Origin: a phage
DNA: 64,000 nt
Direction: 5' to 3' (one strand)
Sequence record: PZ445514.1
Part shown: piece by piece, positions 4,834 to 36,946 of the stretch
Layout: every line of letters starts with the position of its first letter
Position numbering within the stretch: the first letter of the stretch is position 1
Notes under the pieces: generated by a model
What the model saw: only the letters and a program-made list of their open reading frames with translations
Told to the model about the DNA's origin: nothing
The model's database searches: none
Translations under genes and position numbers: made by a program

Positions 4834-5025
4834 TCACTTGTTGTTAATAAGTTCTAAAACTTTCTGTCTTACCTTATCAATATCTGTTGATTCAAAAACT
4901 GTACGATATCCCCAACTTTGCCCATAAGAATGGCTGCAATCACCATAACACCATTGCTCAATTTGATAGTATTCAAGGAACGGGTGCTGTCTAACTATGA
5001 TACCGTCCCGGTTAAAAATTACCAT
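4834..5025 (-). CDS. hypothetical protein
   Basis: 63-aa ORF immediately downstream of a consensus TTGACA/TATAAT promoter. Confidence 0.5.
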   Translation of the reverse strand: MVIFNRDGIIVRQHPFLEYYQIEQWCYGDCSHSYGQSWGYRTVFESTDIDKVRQKVLELINNK

Positions 5026-5056
5026 AATACATCACTCTCTGTTAGTTTATGCGTAT

Positions 5057-5084
5057 ATTATACACTGCAGTTTTCAGATGTCAA
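5057..5084 (-). promoter_or_regulatory. sigma70-type promoter (consensus TTGACA -35 and TATAAT -10, 16-nt spacer)
   Basis: Minus strand reads TTGACA-16 nt-TATAAT about 30 nt upstream of the gene starting at 5025. Confidence 0.5.
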
Positions 5085-5088
5085 CCTC

Positions 5089-5283
5089 TTACAGATTGCT
5101 CCAGTACAATCGGCATTTACATTTTGGGCAATGAGGTTCTTTTATGTAATAACCGTCAGTCTTTGGAACACTTTTTGGTGCAGTTTTAATATTGTACCTG
5201 GTAAAACATCGGAAGCAGGTTACCTCTCCAATCTGTTGATCGTTGATCCACTCGCCAGAGTAAAGTTCTTTCTTGTTCCTCAT
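5089..5283 (-). CDS. putative zinc-ribbon protein
   Basis: 64 aa with CxxC...CxxC pairs (CFRC, CPKC); GAGGAGG upstream. Confidence 0.5.
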   Translation of the reverse strand: MRNKKELYSGEWINDQQIGEVTCFRCFTRYNIKTAPKSVPKTDGYYIKEPHCPKCKCRLYWSNL

Positions 5284-5492
5284 AAGCCCTCCTCAGTCCT
5301 CCAGAACAAATACCAACTCTCCGGTAAATGTTTTTGCAAAGTAATAGCCTGAACATTCATCACTTTTGTACAGCCACCACGTGTCCCAGTCAGGAAGTCG
5401 TACAAGGATATGCTAGGCCCATCTATTACTGGGTATTCTTCAAACGGCCCTTGATTATCCGATTGCGTGGACACACATATGCAGGTTTTCAT
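5280..5492 (-). CDS. hypothetical protein
   Basis: Start moved to internal ATG preceded by GGAGA 7 nt; ATGA overlap with upstream gene. Confidence 0.45.
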   Translation of the reverse strand: MKTCICVSTQSDNQGPFEEYPVIDGPSISLYDFLTGTRGGCTKVMNVQAITLQKHLPESWYLFWRTEEGL

Positions 5493-5659
5493 GCCAGAAT
5501 CTCCAGCCAGAAAGCGCACGGGAACACTTTGATGATTGAATCTTTACCCGGTTCGGCAGTTCTTTTTCCGTAGGGTAGGTAGAAATACCCTCCTGCAGAT
5601 TCGAACACAGCCCCTTCGGTTGTATCTATCACAGCTAGAATTAAGATTTTAGTCTCCAC
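5489..5659 (-). CDS. hypothetical small protein (56 aa, GTG start)
   Basis: GTG preceded by GAGAGGAGAG; stop overlaps start of next gene; not in ORF track. Confidence 0.35.
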   Translation of the reverse strand: METKILILAVIDTTEGAVFESAGGYFYLPYGKRTAEPGKDSIIKVFPCAFWLEILA

Positions 5660-5713
5660 AGTGCTCTCCTCTCTTAGTTGTTGTGGAAACTATATCACCT
5701 CAGAAGATGGTCG

Positions 5714-6172
5714 TCAACACTTTTTGTACTCTACTACAACCACATCAATATCTGTGGTTGCAAGATTAATTACATCTTCTACATGTTCCCACTTTAGACC
5801 GCCAATACCGCATCCGATTTTAGGAATGTAGAACGGCAATGACACACCTTTGAATACCTCGTTGACTCGCTCAAAACCTTTCATGATTGAGAAGTATTCA
5901 GCATTGGGCCCTGGGTAGAACTGGGTATACAGGTTGATTCCATATACGACCCTGTTCTTGGCAAAATGCTCCCAACAAGAAAACATACCCAGCTTGTCTA
6001 GATTCCCATAAGCAGTCTCTTTGTCGGCTGCCAGTGCTTGAGGGAACTCACGGGCAATATCTTTCGCTATGCCTGCACCCATTGTGTGAAAGCAGTTACA
6101 ACCGTGGATCATGTGGCCTGACCCTTTCTTGAAAATGGAGATTAGATCTCCCTTTACAGTATCAATAATCAC
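5714..6172 (-). CDS. macrodomain protein, OARD1/TARG1-like putative ADP-ribose hydrolase
   Basis: By-eye match to OARD1/TARG1 signature from memory: VKGDL, H-x-C-N, MGAGIA, PKIGCGIGGLKWEHV; start uncertain (GTG at 6172 with GAGGAG upstream, or ATG at 6211). Confidence 0.7.
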   Translation of the reverse strand: MIIDTVKGDLISIFKKGSGHMIHGCNCFHTMGAGIAKDIAREFPQALAADKETAYGNLDKLGMFSCWEHFAKNRVVYGINLYTQFYPGPNAEYFSIMKGFERVNEVFKGVSLPFYIPKIGCGIGGLKWEHVEDVINLATTDIDVVVVEYKKC

Positions 6173-6587
6173 GGTATTCCAGCTCCTCTTCTGCAATTTC
6201 CAAAAACTCATCCCAACCCTGTGGCATATTTGAGTTGCCGAAGTGGCTTTCGTAGTAGAGATTTTTACCACTTGGAAGGTAGAAATCTGTTACCTCATAG
6301 AATCCACAATCGTCGCACTCACCTTCTTCAAACTTGGCCTCAACCTTAATACCGAGGAAGGTGAAAAGTTTATGGATATCTTCAGTTTCGAACTCCCAGT
6401 GAATGTTGTTTTCCGCATCGGTGTAGAACTGGATCAGCAGACCATTGTCCAGTTTACCAAAATACTCTGTGAAGTAACTTCCTTCCCAGAAATCTTTATG
6501 ACAAATAATATCCATGCGTTTGCCCATAATAATGGTGTGAGCGTTTTGGGCATCGTCACGAATCAGTTTTGGCATTTCATAGATCAT
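6162..6587 (-). CDS. hypothetical protein, translationally coupled to macrodomain gene
   Basis: 141-aa ORF with GGAGAA upstream; 3' end overlaps the macrodomain gene start. Confidence 0.6.
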   Translation of the reverse strand: MIYEMPKLIRDDAQNAHTIIMGKRMDIICHKDFWEGSYFTEYFGKLDNGLLIQFYTDAENNIHWEFETEDIHKLFTFLGIKVEAKFEEGECDDCGFYEVTDFYLPSGKNLYYESHFGNSNMPQGWDEFLEIAEEELEYRDY

Positions 6588-29714: not shown

Positions 29715-29793
29715 GAGTAAGTGCTCCTATGTTAGTTTTCTTTCGAATGGGTGCACTATATCGGAGATTTAGCGTAAAGTCAACACGTTTTTG

Positions 29794-30834
29794 ATGTTGA
29801 CATCTGTTGGGACAGTTGATACGATTTCTTCACTTACAGAGCACGAGAAACAACTCATGAATCTTGAAAAATATTATACACCAGAAGAGTTAGAGCGCCT
29901 GCTCAAAAAATATAGACGCAAACAGAATAATGCACGGAAACGAGATATAGAGTTCGACCTGTCGTGGGAAGAATACCTCCTATTTGGTAAAAAACTTTTA
30001 GGAGAAGGGGTATGCGACTACACTCTTATACCTTTCGACATGCACACAGATGAAAACGGGCTGGGAAATCCTTTCTATCCATCTCTGGAGCGGATAGATG
30101 ATGAAGGTCCTTACGCAATTGATAATTGTTGTGTGGTAGGATTGAGGTGCAACTCTCTGAAGGACTGTCTGGTAGATAAAAAGACTGCAATCCTGATTAA
30201 AGACAAAACTGATCGAAAAATTGTCCAGCAGATGATGCTCCACCTGAGCGAAGAGCGTATGGAGAAGTTGAAAGGTGATTATACTTTTGAAGATTTCATC
30301 TTGCAATACGGGACAGAAGAAGATAAACTAGCACTTTTTGACGAAGAGGAAGAAGATATGTCACCAATGCAGGACTTTAAAAATTTCATGGCTGATCGTG
30401 CAGCCAACAAACACATTTCAGACATCGTAAACGAAACTGTGACAGAAGAAATTGAAGAACAGAACTCTGAAAAGGAAAAAGAGCCTCAGAAGGTCGAAGA
30501 GGAGATTGCAGAAGAGGTTCCTGCACTGCCTGATGATGTTGAGGTTGCTAAGGCTTACACTTTCTATTGTCAAACGTTCTACGATGCAGGTATGAAAGTT
30601 GATCTGTCGTTCAGCCAGTTTAAGAGTTCGTATATTCGCAAATGCTGTGCTTTAACTGGTGAACGTCTCGGAGCTGGACTTAAACCACTACTGGTGACCG
30701 ACTGGAATAAAGGTTTCACTAAAGGAAACTTTATGGTAGTATCTCCAATTATGGAGAAAGCTATGACAGATCTTATGAAGACCACCCGCATGACAATGAC
30801 CGAGTTGGCAGGTATTTTCAAACACGTTAAATAA
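29794..30834 (+). CDS. hypothetical protein with possible degenerate HNH-like segment and acidic linker
   Basis: 347 aa; segment ERIDDEGPYAIDNCCVVGLRCNSLK resembles HNH spacing but lacks the catalytic His; poor RBS, start uncertain. Confidence 0.5.
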   Translation: MLTSVGTVDTISSLTEHEKQLMNLEKYYTPEELERLLKKYRRKQNNARKRDIEFDLSWEEYLLFGKKLLGEGVCDYTLIPFDMHTDENGLGNPFYPSLERIDDEGPYAIDNCCVVGLRCNSLKDCLVDKKTAILIKDKTDRKIVQQMMLHLSEERMEKLKGDYTFEDFILQYGTEEDKLALFDEEEEDMSPMQDFKNFMADRAANKHISDIVNETVTEEIEEQNSEKEKEPQKVEEEIAEEVPALPDDVEVAKAYTFYCQTFYDAGMKVDLSFSQFKSSYIRKCCALTGERLGAGLKPLLVTDWNKGFTKGNFMVVSPIMEKAMTDLMKTTRMTMTELAGIFKHVK

Positions 30835-30867
30835 TGACAGGGGCCAATGGCCCCTTCTGGAGTTTTA

Positions 30868-32328
30868 ATGGATAGCAGAAGTTCAGAAATCATTGCCTCA
30901 CAAAAAGATGATGCCCTGAGAATGTTGCAGGCTGCACGTATGTATCTCCTTGAAAAGCTGCCGTTTTATGGCACACTGCTGTCAGGGTTGCAGTTCGTAG
31001 AAAACCACACATGGTGCTCCACCATGGCAACCGACCATAAACGCATCTATTACAGTCCTGAGTTCATTATGGGGTTGGCTGATGAACGCAAGGCTATTCT
31101 TAAGGCTTCTCTAACTGACGAGCAGTTTGAGATGGCTGAAGTTTTCTATTCCCCCAAATCTGTGAAAGAGGTAGCCTTTCTTCTGTCACATGAGGTGGGT
31201 CATATTATCTGTGATCACCTGGTCCGTGGTAAAAGCTTTGAGCCGGAACTGTTCAATATTGCTTGTGATCACGTTATCAACACAGGTCTTGTGGTTGACT
31301 TTAGCAAGCCACCTTGTGTTTTCTTCCCGAAAGGGAAAAGCACTACGTTCGTAAAAGGTAAGCCTTTTGGCTTCTTAGCCAGCTGCTACTGTGACATGAA
31401 GTTTCATGGATGGATTGCTGAGAACGTCTATGCAGTTCTTGATAAGCAAAGAGATCAGAATAACGGTAAAAGTAAGAGCGGTAAAGGTGAGAACTCTCAA
31501 GGAGATAAGCGACAAACCGATGATCACATGAGTGGGAACGGTGGCACCAGCGATGATCTTGGAAAGGCTATGGGGTATGATCAGCCACAACCTGTAATCA
31601 GCCAATCTGATAAAGATCAGGCCATGCAGGACTCTGGTGACATGCTGGAGGCAGCAATGCAAGCTTCCGGAGGCCGTTGCCCTGAGGCGGTGCGTGAGTT
31701 TGTCAAGAACAGGGGTAAGCCTGTAATCAACTATATAGACATTATTAAGCAACGCATGTTGTCTAAACGAAAGGCTGAACTGACCTACAGAAAACCTGGT
31801 CGCCGATCTGGTTCTTTGACCAGCACAATGCGAAAAGTTGGGGCTATAAACAAGAACCAGCACGTTATTGTTCCCGGTCGTAATCCTGAAAACACTATAG
31901 ATATTGTGGTGGCTTTAGACGTTTCTGGCTCGATCTCTCAAAGAACTTTAAAGAAAATGTTCAATGAAATCACCGGATTGTGCAATCTGTATAAAGAGTT
32001 TAAGGTTACAATGTTCTGTTGGTCAACCGAGGTTGGAGAGGTCAAAGTATACACTCGCGGCAACATAGACGAGATGATCAACTATGAGGTCCACTCAACA
32101 TGGGGCACAACAGCTGCTTGCGTGTTCGAGTATCTGGATGCCAATATACCGAATGCAAAAGATGTCATCGTCCTGACCGACCTATACTTTGAGCATAACT
32201 TTGAACAAAAGGCTGTTGACAACAAGTGGAAAAAGTACGATACTTTATGGGTTCTCACCGAGGGGTATAATAAAAATTATATCCCGAGCTTTGGGAAAAC
32301 TGTGGAATTAATCGAGTACGCTAAATAA
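30868..32328 (+). CDS. VWA-domain protein with N-terminal putative zinc metallopeptidase domain
   Basis: HEVGH (HExxH) in N-terminal half; MIDAS motif DVSGS in C-terminal half; start moved to 30868 (GGAG 5 nt upstream) because ATG at 30847 lies in a hairpin. Confidence 0.75.
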   Translation: MDSRSSEIIASQKDDALRMLQAARMYLLEKLPFYGTLLSGLQFVENHTWCSTMATDHKRIYYSPEFIMGLADERKAILKASLTDEQFEMAEVFYSPKSVKEVAFLLSHEVGHIICDHLVRGKSFEPELFNIACDHVINTGLVVDFSKPPCVFFPKGKSTTFVKGKPFGFLASCYCDMKFHGWIAENVYAVLDKQRDQNNGKSKSGKGENSQGDKRQTDDHMSGNGGTSDDLGKAMGYDQPQPVISQSDKDQAMQDSGDMLEAAMQASGGRCPEAVREFVKNRGKPVINYIDIIKQRMLSKRKAELTYRKPGRRSGSLTSTMRKVGAINKNQHVIVPGRNPENTIDIVVALDVSGSISQRTLKKMFNEITGLCNLYKEFKVTMFCWSTEVGEVKVYTRGNIDEMINYEVHSTWGTTAACVFEYLDANIPNAKDVIVLTDLYFEHNFEQKAVDNKWKKYDTLWVLTEGYNKNYIPSFGKTVELIEYAK

Positions 32329-32343
32329 AGGAGGAGATTATTT

Positions 32344-32607
32344 ATGGCAACAGAGTTAAAATTTGCATCAAACCGTAAAACTAAGAAGTATCTGTCTTCC
32401 GTAGCTCCAGGCACTGTGGTGATGTTTGTTGATGAGCTTGGGGATGTGAATACAGCACTTGTTGTAAAATCACATCCTGCAAACATATATGTTGGGGTAT
32501 TTGACTTGTTCAGAAAGGTGTTTGTAGAACTACCTCACAGTTTGGTTGTTACAGAAATGGATGCCTGCATAGAAATTCTTGGCGAAGTTATGGTGGAGGA
32601 ACAATAA
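32344..32607 (+). CDS. small protein, tandem paralog 1 of 4
   Basis: 87 aa; AAGGAGGAG upstream; shares K-F-x-C/S-G-x-V-V core with next three genes. Confidence 0.6.
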   Translation: MATELKFASNRKTKKYLSSVAPGTVVMFVDELGDVNTALVVKSHPANIYVGVFDLFRKVFVELPHSLVVTEMDACIEILGEVMVEEQ

Positions 32608-32870
32608 TGGCTACTAGCATTGTATTCAATTCTAAGGTGAAGAACAAAAAGCGTGCAGACAGCTTCCCGTGTGGGACCGTGGTAAGTTGTGACGGAGACG
32701 GCATTCAAAACATAGTTATGATTGTCAAAACAGGAGAACATTGTGTGTGGGGGTTTGATTTAGAAAATAATGAGTTGTACGATCTGCCACCAAACATGAA
32801 AGTTACAGAGCTTGACACCAAAATTACCATCCTTGGAGAGACAAGCTATTCAAAAGAAGGAGGAGAATAA
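32607..32870 (+). CDS. small protein, tandem paralog 2 of 4
   Basis: 87 aa; TAATG stop/start overlap; GGAGG upstream. Confidence 0.6.
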   Translation: MATSIVFNSKVKNKKRADSFPCGTVVSCDGDGIQNIVMIVKTGEHCVWGFDLENNELYDLPPNMKVTELDTKITILGETSYSKEGGE

Positions 32871-33133
32871 TGACCACAAAAATCACTATCGCAGAACCGA
32901 AAGCTAACACTCAACCTATCGAAAAGTTTAAATGCGGTGAGGTGGTAACATTCACACCAGATAATGAAGATGCTAAGATTTTCGCCATGGTCACAGCAGA
33001 GTGGATGTGTGACAACACCACACAGGTTCTGCGTTTTGACACCTATCTTACCGATGAAATCAGGAACGACAAGATCGTGACTGGTGTGGATACTGAGATT
33101 GTTTTCTACAAGAGCTTTTTAGAGGGTTTCTGA
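32870..33133 (+). CDS. small protein, tandem paralog 3 of 4
   Basis: 87 aa; TAATG overlap; GAAGGAGGAG upstream. Confidence 0.6.
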   Translation: MTTKITIAEPKANTQPIEKFKCGEVVTFTPDNEDAKIFAMVTAEWMCDNTTQVLRFDTYLTDEIRNDKIVTGVDTEIVFYKSFLEGF

Positions 33134-33134
33134 T

Positions 33135-33368
33135 ATGGCAAAAATTCGTAAATTATCCAACAATCAGGTTGTGAAAGACTTTGAATCTGGAGAGATTCTT
33201 TATGTTCGTGATGCAGATGACGAAGGTGAAGATCTTGTTATGTTGGTAGGGCACGCTGAGGACGGATGCATCCAAGCTGTTTTTCTTGAAACAGCTATGG
33301 TGCACTGGATAGAGCTGGACCTGAAAGCACGAAAACCTAAAGCAGAAATCTTGATTTACGAAGATTAA
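33135..33368 (+). CDS. small protein, tandem paralog 4 of 4
   Basis: 77 aa; related FESGEILYV...LVMLVG core. Confidence 0.55.
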   Translation: MAKIRKLSNNQVVKDFESGEILYVRDADDEGEDLVMLVGHAEDGCIQAVFLETAMVHWIELDLKARKPKAEILIYED

Positions 33369-33384
33369 CAAAAAGGAGAGAGCC

Positions 33385-33834
33385 GTGTTGAGCAAACGTG
33401 AATGCGACAGCATTAGCCTAAATTCTTATAAGAAACAATGGTTTGGGGTGGAAGTTTGCCGACTGCGGCTAGGCTCCTACCTGAACTTCGTTTATTATGA
33501 GAGCGACAGTCGTATCGTTTCTTATGAAGTGTTCTACACTAAGAACACATTCGAACTGCGCCGTAAAGCAGAGGGAGGGAGAACTACCACCCAGAATAAT
33601 TGGGAAACTATTCTGCCTCCAGATGTCATAGGAAGTCCCCTGAATGTATCTGAAGATGAAAATCTTATGGTTCATGCTATGATGGGACTTGACAGCTTAG
33701 AGCTGGCGATCTATGATATGTCCATCGAAGCAGTTAAGCTGGACTACATCGAAAACACTTTAGAGGAAGGTATCAAGAAGTTTCTCAGTGAGAAATTAAA
33801 AGATCACTTTCATAAGGAGCTATACCTGTTATGA
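33385..33834 (+). CDS. hypothetical protein
   Basis: 149-aa ORF, GTG start after AAAGGAGAGAG. Confidence 0.55.
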   Translation: MLSKRECDSISLNSYKKQWFGVEVCRLRLGSYLNFVYYESDSRIVSYEVFYTKNTFELRRKAEGGRTTTQNNWETILPPDVIGSPLNVSEDENLMVHAMMGLDSLELAIYDMSIEAVKLDYIENTLEEGIKKFLSEKLKDHFHKELYLL

Positions 33835-34076
33835 AGACCCGTAAAGAACGTAACAAAATTTTACCTGGGGCTCTCGAACACCTGATGAAGTGCAGATCTA
33901 TTTGGCACTCTGCCAAGGAAGGGCAGAAGGTGGTTGTGGTTAGTGACAATACCAACCCGTTTGGAGATTATACCACCATGATGGCCCCATATGTCCGTGA
34001 TGGCGTTGTGGAAGTGGTCCCTTACAACGGTCTGCATGAACGTCACTTTGAAAGCACTTTGCTAGTGGAGCTATAG
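33831..34076 (+). CDS. hypothetical protein
   Basis: 81-aa ORF; ATGA overlap; AAGGAG upstream. Confidence 0.55.
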   Translation: MKTRKERNKILPGALEHLMKCRSIWHSAKEGQKVVVVSDNTNPFGDYTTMMAPYVRDGVVEVVPYNGLHERHFESTLLVEL

Positions 34077-34078
34077 TC

Positions 34079-34645
34079 ATGGCGGTCAATGTGGCTTACA
34101 ACACAGGAAAGCTTGACAGAGACATTGGGTGTCTTGTCCTTTCAGATACAGAAGAGTATTGGGGCTATGGGTTGCTGTCAGACCCACACCCGAGCAACCT
34201 CGTATCAACAGTGCTATACCGCTACGACCCTGTGCCAACGGTACACGACAAAGACATTCACGACCTTCGGATTAAGTGTTTGGAAGATCTGCTGAACAAT
34301 GGTTGCAACGATCTGCGGGTAGCCAAAGAGAAGCTTACAAACATTCACAAAGAGGAAGTGATGAGCACCCTCAGTAAGAGATCAGTGCACAAAAAGATGA
34401 TGCTGAACTTTGCAATGGGTATCTACATGGACGGGTATAAGGGAGGTGATCCGATTCTCAAGCTTCGCTGCCCAACACTGTGGGAAAGAGTGGTTGACAG
34501 TAAGGACGGCACTGCCCTGCTCGAACTCCACACCGCAGGTTGGATTTGGCGGTATGTAGACGGATACCCTCTGTGGGCATGTGGACCTGGGGAATTTGTT
34601 GACAGACCTAGCGCGGTAGTGGACTTGCTGTTACAGTTTGAATAA
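34079..34645 (+). CDS. hypothetical protein
   Basis: 188-aa ORF with GGAG upstream. Confidence 0.55.
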   Translation: MAVNVAYNTGKLDRDIGCLVLSDTEEYWGYGLLSDPHPSNLVSTVLYRYDPVPTVHDKDIHDLRIKCLEDLLNNGCNDLRVAKEKLTNIHKEEVMSTLSKRSVHKKMMLNFAMGIYMDGYKGGDPILKLRCPTLWERVVDSKDGTALLELHTAGWIWRYVDGYPLWACGPGEFVDRPSAVVDLLLQFE

Positions 34646-35750: not shown

Positions 35751-36131
35751 ATGTGCAAGTGTAAATCCTATAATTGGAAAGTGAAAGGTGCCAAGCATCC
35801 AAATGTTATCGTTGATGTGCCTAAAAAGCTCCGTGACGGCAAAAAACGTGTGTGCCTTGATAAGTGCATGGTTAAGCCTATTATGAGTCTATGGGCAGCA
35901 GGATTGAAAACTCTAAACTGCTGCTGTGGTCACAACAAAGATGTTCCAAGCATCATTATCCCAGAAGATGCAGACCCTAAAGCTTATGCCAAAATACTGA
36001 CCCGCTACCCAAGCACCTTTCTGATCGGAAAATGGTGTCACGATGAACTTCAATGGTGGATAGCGTACGGTAGTGTAGGTGCTGCTTTTGGCTTCCCAGC
36101 TTTGTCAGAGCGCTACGTCAAAGCGTCATAA
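35751..36131 (+). CDS. hypothetical Cys-rich protein
   Basis: 126 aa; GGAGA upstream; clusters CKCK, CLDKC, NCCCGH suggest metal binding. Confidence 0.55.
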   Translation: MCKCKSYNWKVKGAKHPNVIVDVPKKLRDGKKRVCLDKCMVKPIMSLWAAGLKTLNCCCGHNKDVPSIIIPEDADPKAYAKILTRYPSTFLIGKWCHDELQWWIAYGSVGAAFGFPALSERYVKAS

Positions 36132-36912: not shown

Positions 36913-36946
36913 AAAAGAAAGGGGCCAAACGGCCCCTTTTTTATTT
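36913..36946. terminator. bidirectional rho-independent terminator between convergent operons
   Basis: GGGGCC-AAAC-GGCCCC flanked by AAAAAGAAA and TTTTTTATTT, between plus gene ending 36907 and minus gene ending 36956. Confidence 0.65.

What the first reader, a model, noticed from the sequence alone, without database searches (positions are those of the whole stretch)
32344..33368. Array of four tandem paralogous small genes with stop/start overlaps
Four consecutive ~87-aa ORFs (the last 77 aa), each with its own RBS and joined by TAATG overlaps, encode diverged proteins sharing a K-F-x-(C/S)-G-x-V-V ... hydrophobic-strand core. Tandem expansion and divergence of small proteins in a phage accessory island is typical of host-interaction or anti-defence factors under diversifying selection. 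The family is not one I recognise.
Basis: seen in the sequence. Interest (0 to 1): 0.6.

Follow-up and report, generated by a model that had tools for sequence, protein, structure and literature searches.

The report
Tandem small beta-barrel phage early genes
Four adjacent small genes in an rV5-like E. coli phage are diverged copies of one gene and are predicted to encode acidic SH3-like beta-barrel proteins of unknown function; this is a tidy but fairly ordinary phage early-gene family.

Summary
The window is a Vequintavirus genome, 100% identical to Escherichia phage APECc02. It carries four co-directional ORFs: A 32344-32607, B 32607-32870, C 32870-33133 and D 33135-33368. Each has its own Shine-Dalgarno site. 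Two junctions are TAATG overlaps; the third is TGAtATG.

All four are homologous. A and B share 37% identity. A profile built only from A/B-type sequences picks out C (E 1.8e-6) and D (E 2.6e-4) as the best other ORFs among 716, and no shuffled sequence comes close. AlphaFold models of A and D (pLDDT about 80) both show an SH3-like/Tudor/KOW-like small beta-barrel. All four proteins are acidic and lack transmembrane segments.

The family is tiny: about six clusters among 1.84 billion representative proteins. Copy number is 0 in other Vequintavirinae genera, 1 in a sister lineage, and 3 or 4 in Vequintavirus. C and D are present in all 118 isolates. The first slot holds either A+B (44 isolates) or one gene, X (74), swapped as a gene-precise cassette.

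Orthologue dN/dS is 0.01-0.32, so selection is purifying, not diversifying. Function is unknown. My best inference is early-expressed binders of host proteins. Interest is modest.

The parts
29797..29825 (+). Sigma-70-type promoter with extended -10 (TTGACA-17-TGaTACGAT), heading the + strand unit that contains the array. It is the equivalent of rV5 promoter P11.
   Evidence: Consensus scan gives 10/12 matches with TG. The sequence aligns with the annotated rV5 P11 promoter. [quoted passage not shown] Predicted only; no transcript data.
30847..32328 (+). Upstream neighbour: DUF2201 putative metallopeptidase with a VWA-like domain (rV5 gp012/013). It forms the left border of the slot.
   Evidence: Pfam PF13203 at 3.5e-28 and PF09967 at 3.6e-11. 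In Avunavirus, Seunavirus and Mydovirus this gene is followed directly by the homologue of 33385-33834, with no array between them.
32329..32334 (+). Shine-Dalgarno site AGGAGG for gene A, 9 nt before the ATG.
   Evidence: Read from the sequence.
32344..32607 (+). Gene A (87 aa, pI 5.0). Slot-1 paralogue, type A, phrog_10698.
32595..32599 (+). Shine-Dalgarno site GGAGG for gene B, lying inside the 3' end of A. The A stop and B start overlap as TAATG at 32605-32609.
   Evidence: Read from the sequence.
32607..32870 (+). Gene B (87 aa, pI 4.9). Slot-1 paralogue, type B, phrog_10698.
   Evidence: 37% identical to A, E 3e-12. PHROG match at 4.8e-41. Always found together with A in the phage records. 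dN/dS 0.13 against phage Aya.
32858..32863 (+). Shine-Dalgarno site AGGAGG for gene C. The B stop and C start overlap as TAATG at 32868-32872. This is also the right-hand breakpoint of the A+B / X cassette swap.
   Evidence: Sequence. In the window-versus-rV5 alignment, identity resumes exactly at TAATGACC.
32870..33133 (+). Gene C (87 aa, pI 4.5; rV5 gp015; phrog_12861). The most constrained paralogue.
   Evidence: The A/B/X-only HMM scores it at 23.4 bits, E 1.8e-6, with 0 of 3000 shuffles reaching that. Found in 118 of 118 records at 93% identity or more. Versus rV5 there are 21 synonymous and 1 non-synonymous differences; versus L025 there are 41.5 and 6.5. It occurs alone, 81% identical, in a phage whose DUF2201 protein is only 47% identical.
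33122..33126 (+). Weaker Shine-Dalgarno site GAGGG for gene D. C stop TGA is at 33131-33133 and D start at 33135, with a 1-nt spacer and no overlap.
   Evidence: Read from the sequence.
33135..33368 (+). Gene D (77 aa, pI 4.6; rV5 gp016; phrog_12046). The shortest and most diverged paralogue.
33385..33834 (+). Downstream neighbour (149 aa, phrog_6790, rV5 gp017). It forms the right border of the slot and is not a family member.
   Evidence: PHROG match at 1.6e-58. Homologues directly follow the DUF2201 gene in other genera, and follow the single-copy gene in the sister lineage.
36918..36939 (.). Bidirectional intrinsic terminator hairpin at the end of the + strand unit.
   Evidence: Terminator scan: 9-bp stem with 6 GC pairs. 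Corresponds to the bidirectional terminators annotated after rV5 gene 26 (PMC3606486).

Best explanation
The locus is a tandem family of four diverged paralogues in the host-promoter-driven unit of an rV5-like phage (rV5 genes 11-26), which I take to be early. Each gene encodes a cytoplasmic, acidic protein of about 9-10 kDa that is predicted to fold as one SH3-like (Tudor/KOW-like) small beta-barrel.

Shown or directly computed: the four genes are homologous; A and D are predicted to share this fold; every member is under purifying selection; and the copies are strung together with their own ribosome-binding sites and stop/start overlaps, which is compatible with coupled translation.

The family arose in the lineage leading to Vequintavirus. 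The slot holds no copy in other Vequintavirinae genera, one copy in a sister lineage, and three or four in Vequintavirus. It then split into two fixed core members (C and D) and a first slot that exists in two alternative states, A+B or a single gene X. The three slot-1 types are about 40% identical to each other and are exchanged by recombination exactly at the gene borders.

Inferred, not shown: each paralogue type acts on its own as a stoichiometric binder of a different host protein, or possibly a phage protein, early in infection. That would be host take-over or counter-defence. C and D would serve functions needed on every host, and slot 1 a host- or strain-dependent one.
For: Identity and setting:
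- 100% match to phage APECc02, with the ORFs annotated as CDS.
- Sigma-70 promoter and terminator bracket the unit (PMC3606486).

Homology.

Fold:
- AlphaFold pLDDT 79.9 for A and 79.5 for D.
- In BFVD the model resembles many uncharacterised 70-90 aa phage proteins.

Protein properties: pI 4.5-5.0, barrel body net charge -7 to -9, no hydrophobic segment. This favours protein binding over nucleic-acid binding.

Real genes: dN/dS 0.01-0.32.

Autonomy of members:
- A single copy sits in the same slot in six sister-lineage contigs.
- A C-type gene sits alone at another position in a distant relative.
- An X-type gene sits in an unrelated context.

Cassette swap:
- 44 records carry A+B and 74 carry X.
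- The breakpoints fall at codon 4 of slot 1 and at the start of C.
- Phage A140 has a DUF2201 protein 99.8% identical to the window's, yet carries X.

Narrow distribution: 12 hits, two of them spurious repeat proteins, among 1.84 billion representatives.
Against: - No experiment or database annotation bears on function, and no binding partner is known.
- Early expression is inferred from predicted promoters and gene layout, not from transcript data.
- The two structure models were made from a shallow alignment of 10-13 rows that mixes all paralogues. The agreement between the A and D models is therefore not fully independent.
- C and B were not modelled.
- The SH3-like barrel is one of the commonest small folds and says little about function. 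Its best PDB matches (uL2, KOW, EF-P) bind RNA.
- Stop/start overlaps and near-equal sizes would also fit subunits of one complex.
- The virion proteomics supplement of the rV5 paper was not read. Only the main text was, and it does not list gp14-16.
Confidence: 0.5

Rival explanations
1. The proteins are nucleic-acid- or ribosome-binding regulators. They would use the KOW/Tudor/uL2-like barrel to bind RNA, DNA or the translation or transcription machinery directly, and so retune host gene expression.
Confidence: 0.18
2. One reading: the proteins are dedicated anti-defence factors evolving under diversifying selection. The paralogues would be an arms-race series, each tracking a variant host immune protein.
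For: They are small acidic proteins in what I infer to be an early unit. Slot 1 is dimorphic within a genus whose flanks are 98-100% identical, and it is replaced as a cassette. Members appear in different genomic contexts in relatives. This pattern resembles anti-CRISPR and other counter-defence loci (my own knowledge).
Against: There is no sign of positive selection: dN/dS is 0.01-0.32 for every orthologous pair. C and D are fixed in 118 of 118 isolates and nearly invariant, which points to an essential or general role. Vequintavirinae are reported as exceptionally sensitive to the RM systems tested, and all are sensitive to Fun/Z (PMC8594841). No match to any described anti-defence protein was found, though no dedicated anti-defence library was available.
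Confidence: 0.2
3. The four products are subunits of one hetero-oligomeric assembly, such as an Sm/Hfq-like ring of small barrels, made in fixed ratios by translational coupling.
For: The genes have stop/start overlaps, nearly identical sizes and a fixed order. Small beta-barrels often oligomerise (my own knowledge). C and D always occur together in Vequintavirus.
Against: Copy number is 1, 3 or 4 in otherwise syntenic phages. A C-type gene is found alone and an X-type gene alone in other contexts. Slot 1 can hold one or two genes without any change in C or D. No multimer modelling could be run.
Confidence: 0.1
4. The similarity among A/B, C and D is chance or convergence between unrelated small beta-rich ORFs that share only translation-start context (MAT/MTT).
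For: Direct BLAST finds no A-C, A-D, B-C or B-D hit. PHROGs keeps three separate families. hhalign of A/B against D, and of C against D, is weak, at E 0.02-0.03.
Confidence: 0.02

Closest known systems
PHROG families phrog_10698 (A, B), phrog_12861 (C) and phrog_12046 (D), all of unknown function
   Same: The four proteins match these profiles end to end, at E 1e-41 to 1e-62. They are the same genes as rV5 gp014-016 and their orthologues in more than 100 sequenced vequintaviruses.
   Different: PHROGs treats them as three unrelated families with no function. Here they are linked as one family with a common predicted fold and a copy-number history.
SH3-like small beta-barrel superfold: Tudor, KOW, uL2 C-terminal domain, EF-P domain I, and the UvrD/PcrA C-terminal Tudor domain that binds RNA polymerase
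   Different: No sequence-level match to any of these families. The proteins are acidic rather than basic. No Tudor-type aromatic cage or KOW motif was demonstrated. They are stand-alone phage proteins, not domains of larger factors.
Uncharacterised small beta-barrel proteins of other phages, e.g. N4 gp21, several proteins of phage EP335, and Serratia phage Hera A0A7T3N9D3
   Same: Similar size (70-90 aa) and similar predicted fold in BFVD, at Foldseek E 1e-3 to 2e-2 and TM 0.5-0.7.
   Different: Sequence identity is 8-22%. No homology is detectable by HMM in 1.84 billion proteins. None of them has a known function either.
Tandem paralogue and allelic-cassette organisation of phage early accessory genes (anti-CRISPR loci; small early ORF clusters of T4-like and T5-like phages). 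This comparison rests on my own knowledge.
   Same: Short co-directional ORFs behind an early host-type promoter, with gene-precise replacement between near-identical genomes and movement of single members between phages.
   Different: No linked regulator such as Aca, and no demonstrated target. Two of the four members are fixed and highly constrained rather than variable.

Membership tests
One paralogous family comprising A, B, C and D | Sequence similarity significantly above chance over most of the length | tested here: met
   A-B E 3e-12. An HMM without C or D scores C at E 1.8e-6 and D at E 2.6e-4 among 716 ORFs, with the next ORF at 0.12. 0 of 3000 shuffles reach those scores, and the alignments cover residues 1-75 of C and 6-74 of D.
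One paralogous family comprising A, B, C and D | Same fold | tested here: inconclusive
SH3-like small beta-barrel fold | Five- to six-stranded closed or partly open barrel superposable on SH3/Tudor/KOW domains | tested here: met
KOW motif (Pfam PF00467) / NusG-Spt5 / ribosomal L24 and L2 families | Match to the family profile above the curated threshold | tested here: not met
   hmmscan against Pfam-A and NCBIfam at E up to 1 gives no KOW or ribosomal match. A profile search of PDB sequences gives nothing below E 0.5.
Tudor domains (methyl-lysine/arginine readers) and bacterial Tudor-like RNA-polymerase-interacting domains (CarD/TRCF RID, UvrD/PcrA C-terminus) | Family profile match, an aromatic cage, or demonstrated binding to the RNA polymerase beta subunit | tested here: not met
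Phage early (host-take-over) genes | Transcription from a host sigma-70 promoter soon after infection | tested here: inconclusive
   A consensus promoter with extended -10 lies at 29797-29825, equivalent to annotated rV5 P11. The unit ends at a bidirectional terminator (PMC3606486). No transcriptome was available.
Anti-defence proteins (Acr, Ocr/Ard, Tad, Gad and others) | Homology to a described anti-defence protein, or measured inhibition of a defence system | not tested
   No anti-defence profile library was available. Pfam, NCBIfam and PHROGs give no such label. The literature search found nothing on these genes.
Genes under diversifying (positive) selection | dN/dS above 1, or an excess of non-synonymous change between orthologues | tested here: not met
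   Pairwise Nei-Gojobori dN/dS is 0.01-0.32 for A, B, X, C and D across five comparison genomes. Site-specific tests were not run.
Virion structural proteins | Detected in purified particles | not tested
   gp14-16 are not among the virion proteins named in the main text of the rV5 proteomics paper. The supplementary table was not read.

The most novel reading that the evidence does not exclude
This is a lineage-restricted family that was born or acquired only in the ancestor of Vequintavirus and its sister lineage. It then expanded in place into a small toolkit of single-domain barrel inhibitors, each aimed at a different host protein. Two members (C and D) became indispensable take-over factors. 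The first slot became a swappable specificity cassette (A+B versus X) that tunes the phage to different E. coli strains or defence repertoires. If so, the natural A+B and X variants already present in the BASEL collection would amount to a ready-made allelic series for finding new host targets.
Probability: 0.2. Interest if true: 0.5.

Novelty: new member of a known kind. Interest (0 to 1): 0.3.

Why it matters
rV5-like phages are among the most commonly isolated E. coli phages and are candidates for therapy and biocontrol, yet most of their genes in this host-promoter-driven unit have no known role. Linking three 'unknown' PHROG families into one SH3-like family gives a concrete handle on these genes: two members are fixed and one slot is naturally swappable. 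The members are small, soluble and easy to express. Sequenced phages that are near-identical in the flanking genes differ in this cassette, and the BASEL collection holds both states. If the proteins prove to be inhibitors of host proteins, they would add to the stock of phage-derived tools. If not, the locus is still a clean small example of how phage gene families grow by duplication and cassette exchange under purifying selection.

Tried and rejected
1. The word-indexed homologue searches for A, C and D returned only relatives at 79% identity or more, and did not even link A to B. The exhaustive profile search was needed instead.
2. Two of the 12 profile hits (P0030, 1684 aa with 15 stretches; P0031, 408 aa with 4 stretches) are repeat proteins whose weak repeated matches add up. 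I rejected them as spurious.
3. I tried to predict all four proteins as one linker-joined chain to save jobs.
A single-protein query with the outgroup worked.
5. The nearby 81-aa gene at 33831-34076, which carries a similar G-x-K-V-V-V-V motif, looked like a possible fifth paralogue. Neither HMM hits it, so I rejected it.
6. The 85-87 aa genes between the Srd-like and DUF2201 genes in Avunavirus, Seunavirus and Mydovirus looked like possible displaced members. The HMMs do not hit them.
7. I tested whether the family derives from the adjacent DUF2201 gene. C aligns to residues 397-452 at 36% over 61 aa (E 0.002, single subject). The family HMM does not hit any of three DUF2201 orthologues, no other paralogue gives a comparable match to a DUF2201 protein (best E 0.35-0.66 over 15-23 residues), and that region belongs to a VWA-like domain. 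I treat it as chance.
8. At first I read the 96-98% identity of C and D in locus L011, whose flanks are 56-82% identical, as exceptional constraint. Comparison with L025, Aya and rV5 shows uneven dS along the locus, so mosaic recombination contributes as well.
9. The literature searches covered rV5 genomics and proteomics, BASEL, CRISPRi-ART with phage EdH4, an accessory-gene screen and a daunorubicin study. None held data on these genes.

Full report
WHAT THE WINDOW IS. The 2.3 kb around the finding is 100% identical to Escherichia phage APECc02 (Vequintavirus, the rV5-like myoviruses) and 90-100% identical to 118 phage records. RefSeq annotates the four ORFs as hypothetical proteins FDG86_gp160-163. 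In the type phage rV5 the equivalents are gp014-016.

CHECKING THE OBSERVATION. The ORFs sit exactly as described: A 32344-32607 (87 aa), B 32607-32870 (87 aa), C 32870-33133 (87 aa) and D 33135-33368 (77 aa), all on the + strand. Each is preceded by a Shine-Dalgarno-like site: AGGAGG, GGAGG, AGGAGG and GAGGG, 6-9 nt upstream. The A/B and B/C junctions are TAATG overlaps. The C/D junction is TGA-t-ATG, so 'joined by TAATG overlaps' is true for two of three junctions. The quoted motif is literal only in C. Across the four proteins only the glycine is invariant.

ARE THEY PARALOGUES? A and B clearly are: 37% identity, E 3e-12, and both match phrog_10698. C (phrog_12861) and D (phrog_12046) give no direct BLAST hit to A or B, so the claim needed testing.
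- Local-alignment scores against 2000 shuffles give B-C z 4.7, B-D z 4.35, C-D z 4.9 and X-C z 3.6. A-C and A-D are not significant.
- hhalign of an A/B/X profile against C gives 75% probability and E 2.5e-5 over 76 columns. Against D it is weak, at E 0.02.
- The cleanest test used an HMM built only from A-, B- and X-type sequences and the single-copy outgroup, with no C or D. I searched it against all 716 six-frame ORFs of 45 aa or more from the window and seven related loci. It ranks C (23.4 bits, E 1.8e-6) and D (16.5 bits, E 2.6e-4) immediately after its own members. The next ORF is at E 0.12.
- None of 3000 composition-matched shuffles of C or D reaches these scores (maxima 9.4 and 12.0 bits). 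The alignments are collinear and cover residues 1-75 of C and 6-74 of D.

I conclude that all four are homologous. The window holds no fifth member. The nearby 81-aa gene at 33831-34076, which has a similar-looking motif, is not hit.

So the proteins are predicted SH3-like small beta-barrels. Three caveats apply. The alignments are shallow (10-13 rows) and shared between the two jobs. B and C were not modelled. This fold is very common and says little about function.

In the BFVD viral library the A model resembles dozens of uncharacterised 70-90 aa phage proteins, including N4 gp21, three proteins of EP335 and Serratia phage Hera. None has a known role. There is no sequence-level match in Pfam, NCBIfam or PDB sequences.

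All members are acidic (pI 4.2-5.0), with barrel bodies of net charge -7 to -9, and have no hydrophobic segment long enough to span a membrane.

DISTRIBUTION AND HISTORY. An exhaustive profile search of 1.84 billion representative proteins found 12 hits. Two are spurious repeat proteins. The rest are 55-92 aa proteins that fall into about six clusters: A, B-like, X-like, C, D and an outgroup type.

Copy number in the slot between the DUF2201 metallopeptidase/VWA gene (30847-32328) and the 149-aa gene at 33385-33834 varies as follows:
- Zero copies in the three other Vequintavirinae genera where the 33385-33834 homologue abuts the DUF2201 gene: Avunavirus 18-1-2, Seunavirus SSE121 and Mydovirus KB57. 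The family HMMs also find no member in the Certrevirus CR9 locus.
- One copy in a metagenomic sister lineage whose DUF2201 protein is 62% identical, seen in six contigs.
- Three copies (X, C, D) in rV5 and 74 of 118 isolate records.
- Four copies (A, B, C, D) in 44 of 118 records, including this window.

C and D are present in all 118 records, at 93% and 90.9% identity or more respectively. A, B and X are about equally distant from one another (36-42% identity). The outgroup is 22-32% identical to them. C and D are 16-30% identical to everything else.

Members also occur on their own elsewhere. An X-like gene lies in an unrelated gene context (L009). A C-like gene, 81% identical, sits alone upstream of the Srd-like gene in a phage whose DUF2201 protein is only 47% identical (L022-24). 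So members function independently and move between phages.

CASSETTE SWAP. Aligning the window with rV5 shows about 99% identity up to the fourth codon of the first gene. Similarity then collapses, and identity resumes exactly at the TAATG that starts C. The 258-nt X gene and the 527-nt A+B pair are therefore alternative, gene-precise cassettes. Slot state is uncoupled from the flanks. For example, the record named Campylobacter phage A140 has a DUF2201 protein 99.8% identical to the window's but carries X.

SELECTION. Pairwise Nei-Gojobori estimates give dN/dS well below 1 for every member:
- A: 0.18-0.21.
- B: 0.13.
- X: 0.13-0.32.
- C: 0.01-0.12. Against rV5 there are 21 synonymous and 1 non-synonymous differences. 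Against L025 there are 41.5 and 6.5, with synonymous sites saturated.
- D: 0.02-0.10.

Diversity at slot 1 comes from the replacement of whole genes. dS is uneven along the locus: between the window and rV5, C has dS 0.55 while D and the next gene have dS 0.08. In L011, C and D are 96-98% identical to the window's while the flanks are 56-82% identical. This indicates mosaic recombination in addition to constraint.

EXPRESSION CONTEXT. The array lies in a + strand block. The block is headed by a consensus sigma-70 promoter with extended -10 at 29797-29825, which is the counterpart of annotated rV5 promoter P11. It ends at a bidirectional terminator at 36918-36939. The rV5 paper proposes genes 11-26 as one transcription unit, notes that gp11 is Srd-like (a putative anti-sigma factor), does not mention any paralogy of gp14-16, and does not list them among the virion proteins named in the text (PMC3606486). 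Early expression is therefore inferred, not shown.

MECHANISM. Shown: a four-member paralogous family, a predicted SH3-like barrel, acidic soluble products, purifying selection, autonomy of members, and a dimorphic first slot.

Inferred: each type is an early-made stoichiometric binder of a distinct host protein, or possibly a phage protein. I favour protein binding over nucleic-acid binding because of the uniformly acidic barrels. I favour independent action over an obligate hetero-complex because copy number varies and single members exist alone. I put about 0.5 on this reading. The rivals are nucleic-acid or ribosome binding (0.18), dedicated anti-defence factors in an arms race (0.2; this overlaps the main reading in part and is weakened by dN/dS, by the fixation of C and D, and by the reported high sensitivity of Vequintavirinae to the RM systems and to Fun/Z in PMC8594841), a hetero-oligomer (0.1), and chance similarity (0.02).

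COMPARISON WITH WHAT IS KNOWN, AND NOVELTY. The genes themselves are already in the databases as hypothetical proteins and as three PHROG families. What is new here is the link between those families, the predicted fold, the copy-number history and the cassette dimorphism. The kind of thing is familiar: small paralogous single-domain proteins in a host-promoter-driven phage unit that I take to be early. I file it as a new member of a known kind, with interest about 0.3. No paper in the searchable library addresses these genes.

Noticed in passing
window 30847-32328: This protein is a DUF2201 putative metallopeptidase with a VWA-like domain by Pfam. Public records label it 'HNH endonuclease' or 'putative anti-sigma factor', which looks like label propagation from PHROG 1314. 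In the rV5 reference it is split into gp012 and gp013 by a 1-nt indel near window position 32116.
   Followed up: partly
window 33385-33834: This 149-aa gene (phrog_6790) is called 'tail protein' in some records and 'holin' in another. It nevertheless sits in the unit I infer to be early and directly follows, even overlaps, the DUF2201 gene in Avunavirus, Seunavirus and Mydovirus. Both labels look doubtful.
   Followed up: no
GenBank records MG0656xx (hits H37, H38, H95, H103, H158 and others): Sixteen records named 'Campylobacter phage' with host Campylobacter jejuni are 97-100% identical to E. coli vequintaviruses across this locus. This suggests mislabelled hosts or contamination.
   Followed up: no
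L006 and L007, 2119-3258: The single-copy sister-lineage phage carries a 379-aa TnpB-like gene (OrfB_IS605 / Cas12f1-like TNB domains). It is inserted at the divergent promoter region just upstream of the Srd-like gene.
   Followed up: no
L018-L021, about 4938-6130: In the sister lineage, the homologue of the window's 188-aa gene (34079-34645) appears to be present as two tandem diverged copies in three of the four contigs (L019-L021; L018 has one full copy and a short fragment). This would be a second local duplication in the same unit.
   Followed up: no
window 32870-33133 compared with L002 (rV5): Between the window and rV5, gene C has dS 0.55 (21 synonymous and 1 non-synonymous differences), while the adjacent D and the next gene have dS about 0.08. 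The synonymous differences cluster from about 33016 onward. This points to a recombination breakpoint inside C with the protein kept almost unchanged.
   Followed up: partly
window 32216-32244: A promoter-like site (TTGACA, 17 nt, GATACT) lies inside the 3' end of the DUF2201 gene, 100 nt upstream of gene A, in a stretch 100% identical to rV5. It is not annotated as a promoter in rV5.
   Followed up: no
window 33153-33413, minus strand: An 86-aa ORF runs antisense across gene D and the following intergenic region. Nothing supports it as a gene, and no homologue or annotation was seen.
   Followed up: no
L022, 3080-3986 and 4001-4279: In a distant relative whose core proteins are 37-47% identical, three small genes are much more similar to window genes: 72% to 6162-6587(-), 64% to 35751-36131(+), and 81% to gene C. 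Small genes of this kind appear to be exchanged between otherwise diverged phages.
   Followed up: partly
L013 (GCA_002973135.1 contig JZQG01000001.1, 45.8 kb); also P0003, P0014, P0016: Several family members are recorded in NCBI as 'hypothetical protein [Escherichia coli]'. They come from vequintavirus-like contigs inside E. coli genome assemblies. This is probably phage carried along in the sequenced culture rather than a prophage.
   Followed up: no
window 29791-30834: The mechanical ORF list starts the Srd-like gene at TTG 29791, which overlaps the predicted promoter. Comparison with rV5 and the RefSeq annotation places the real start at ATG 29857.
   Followed up: yes
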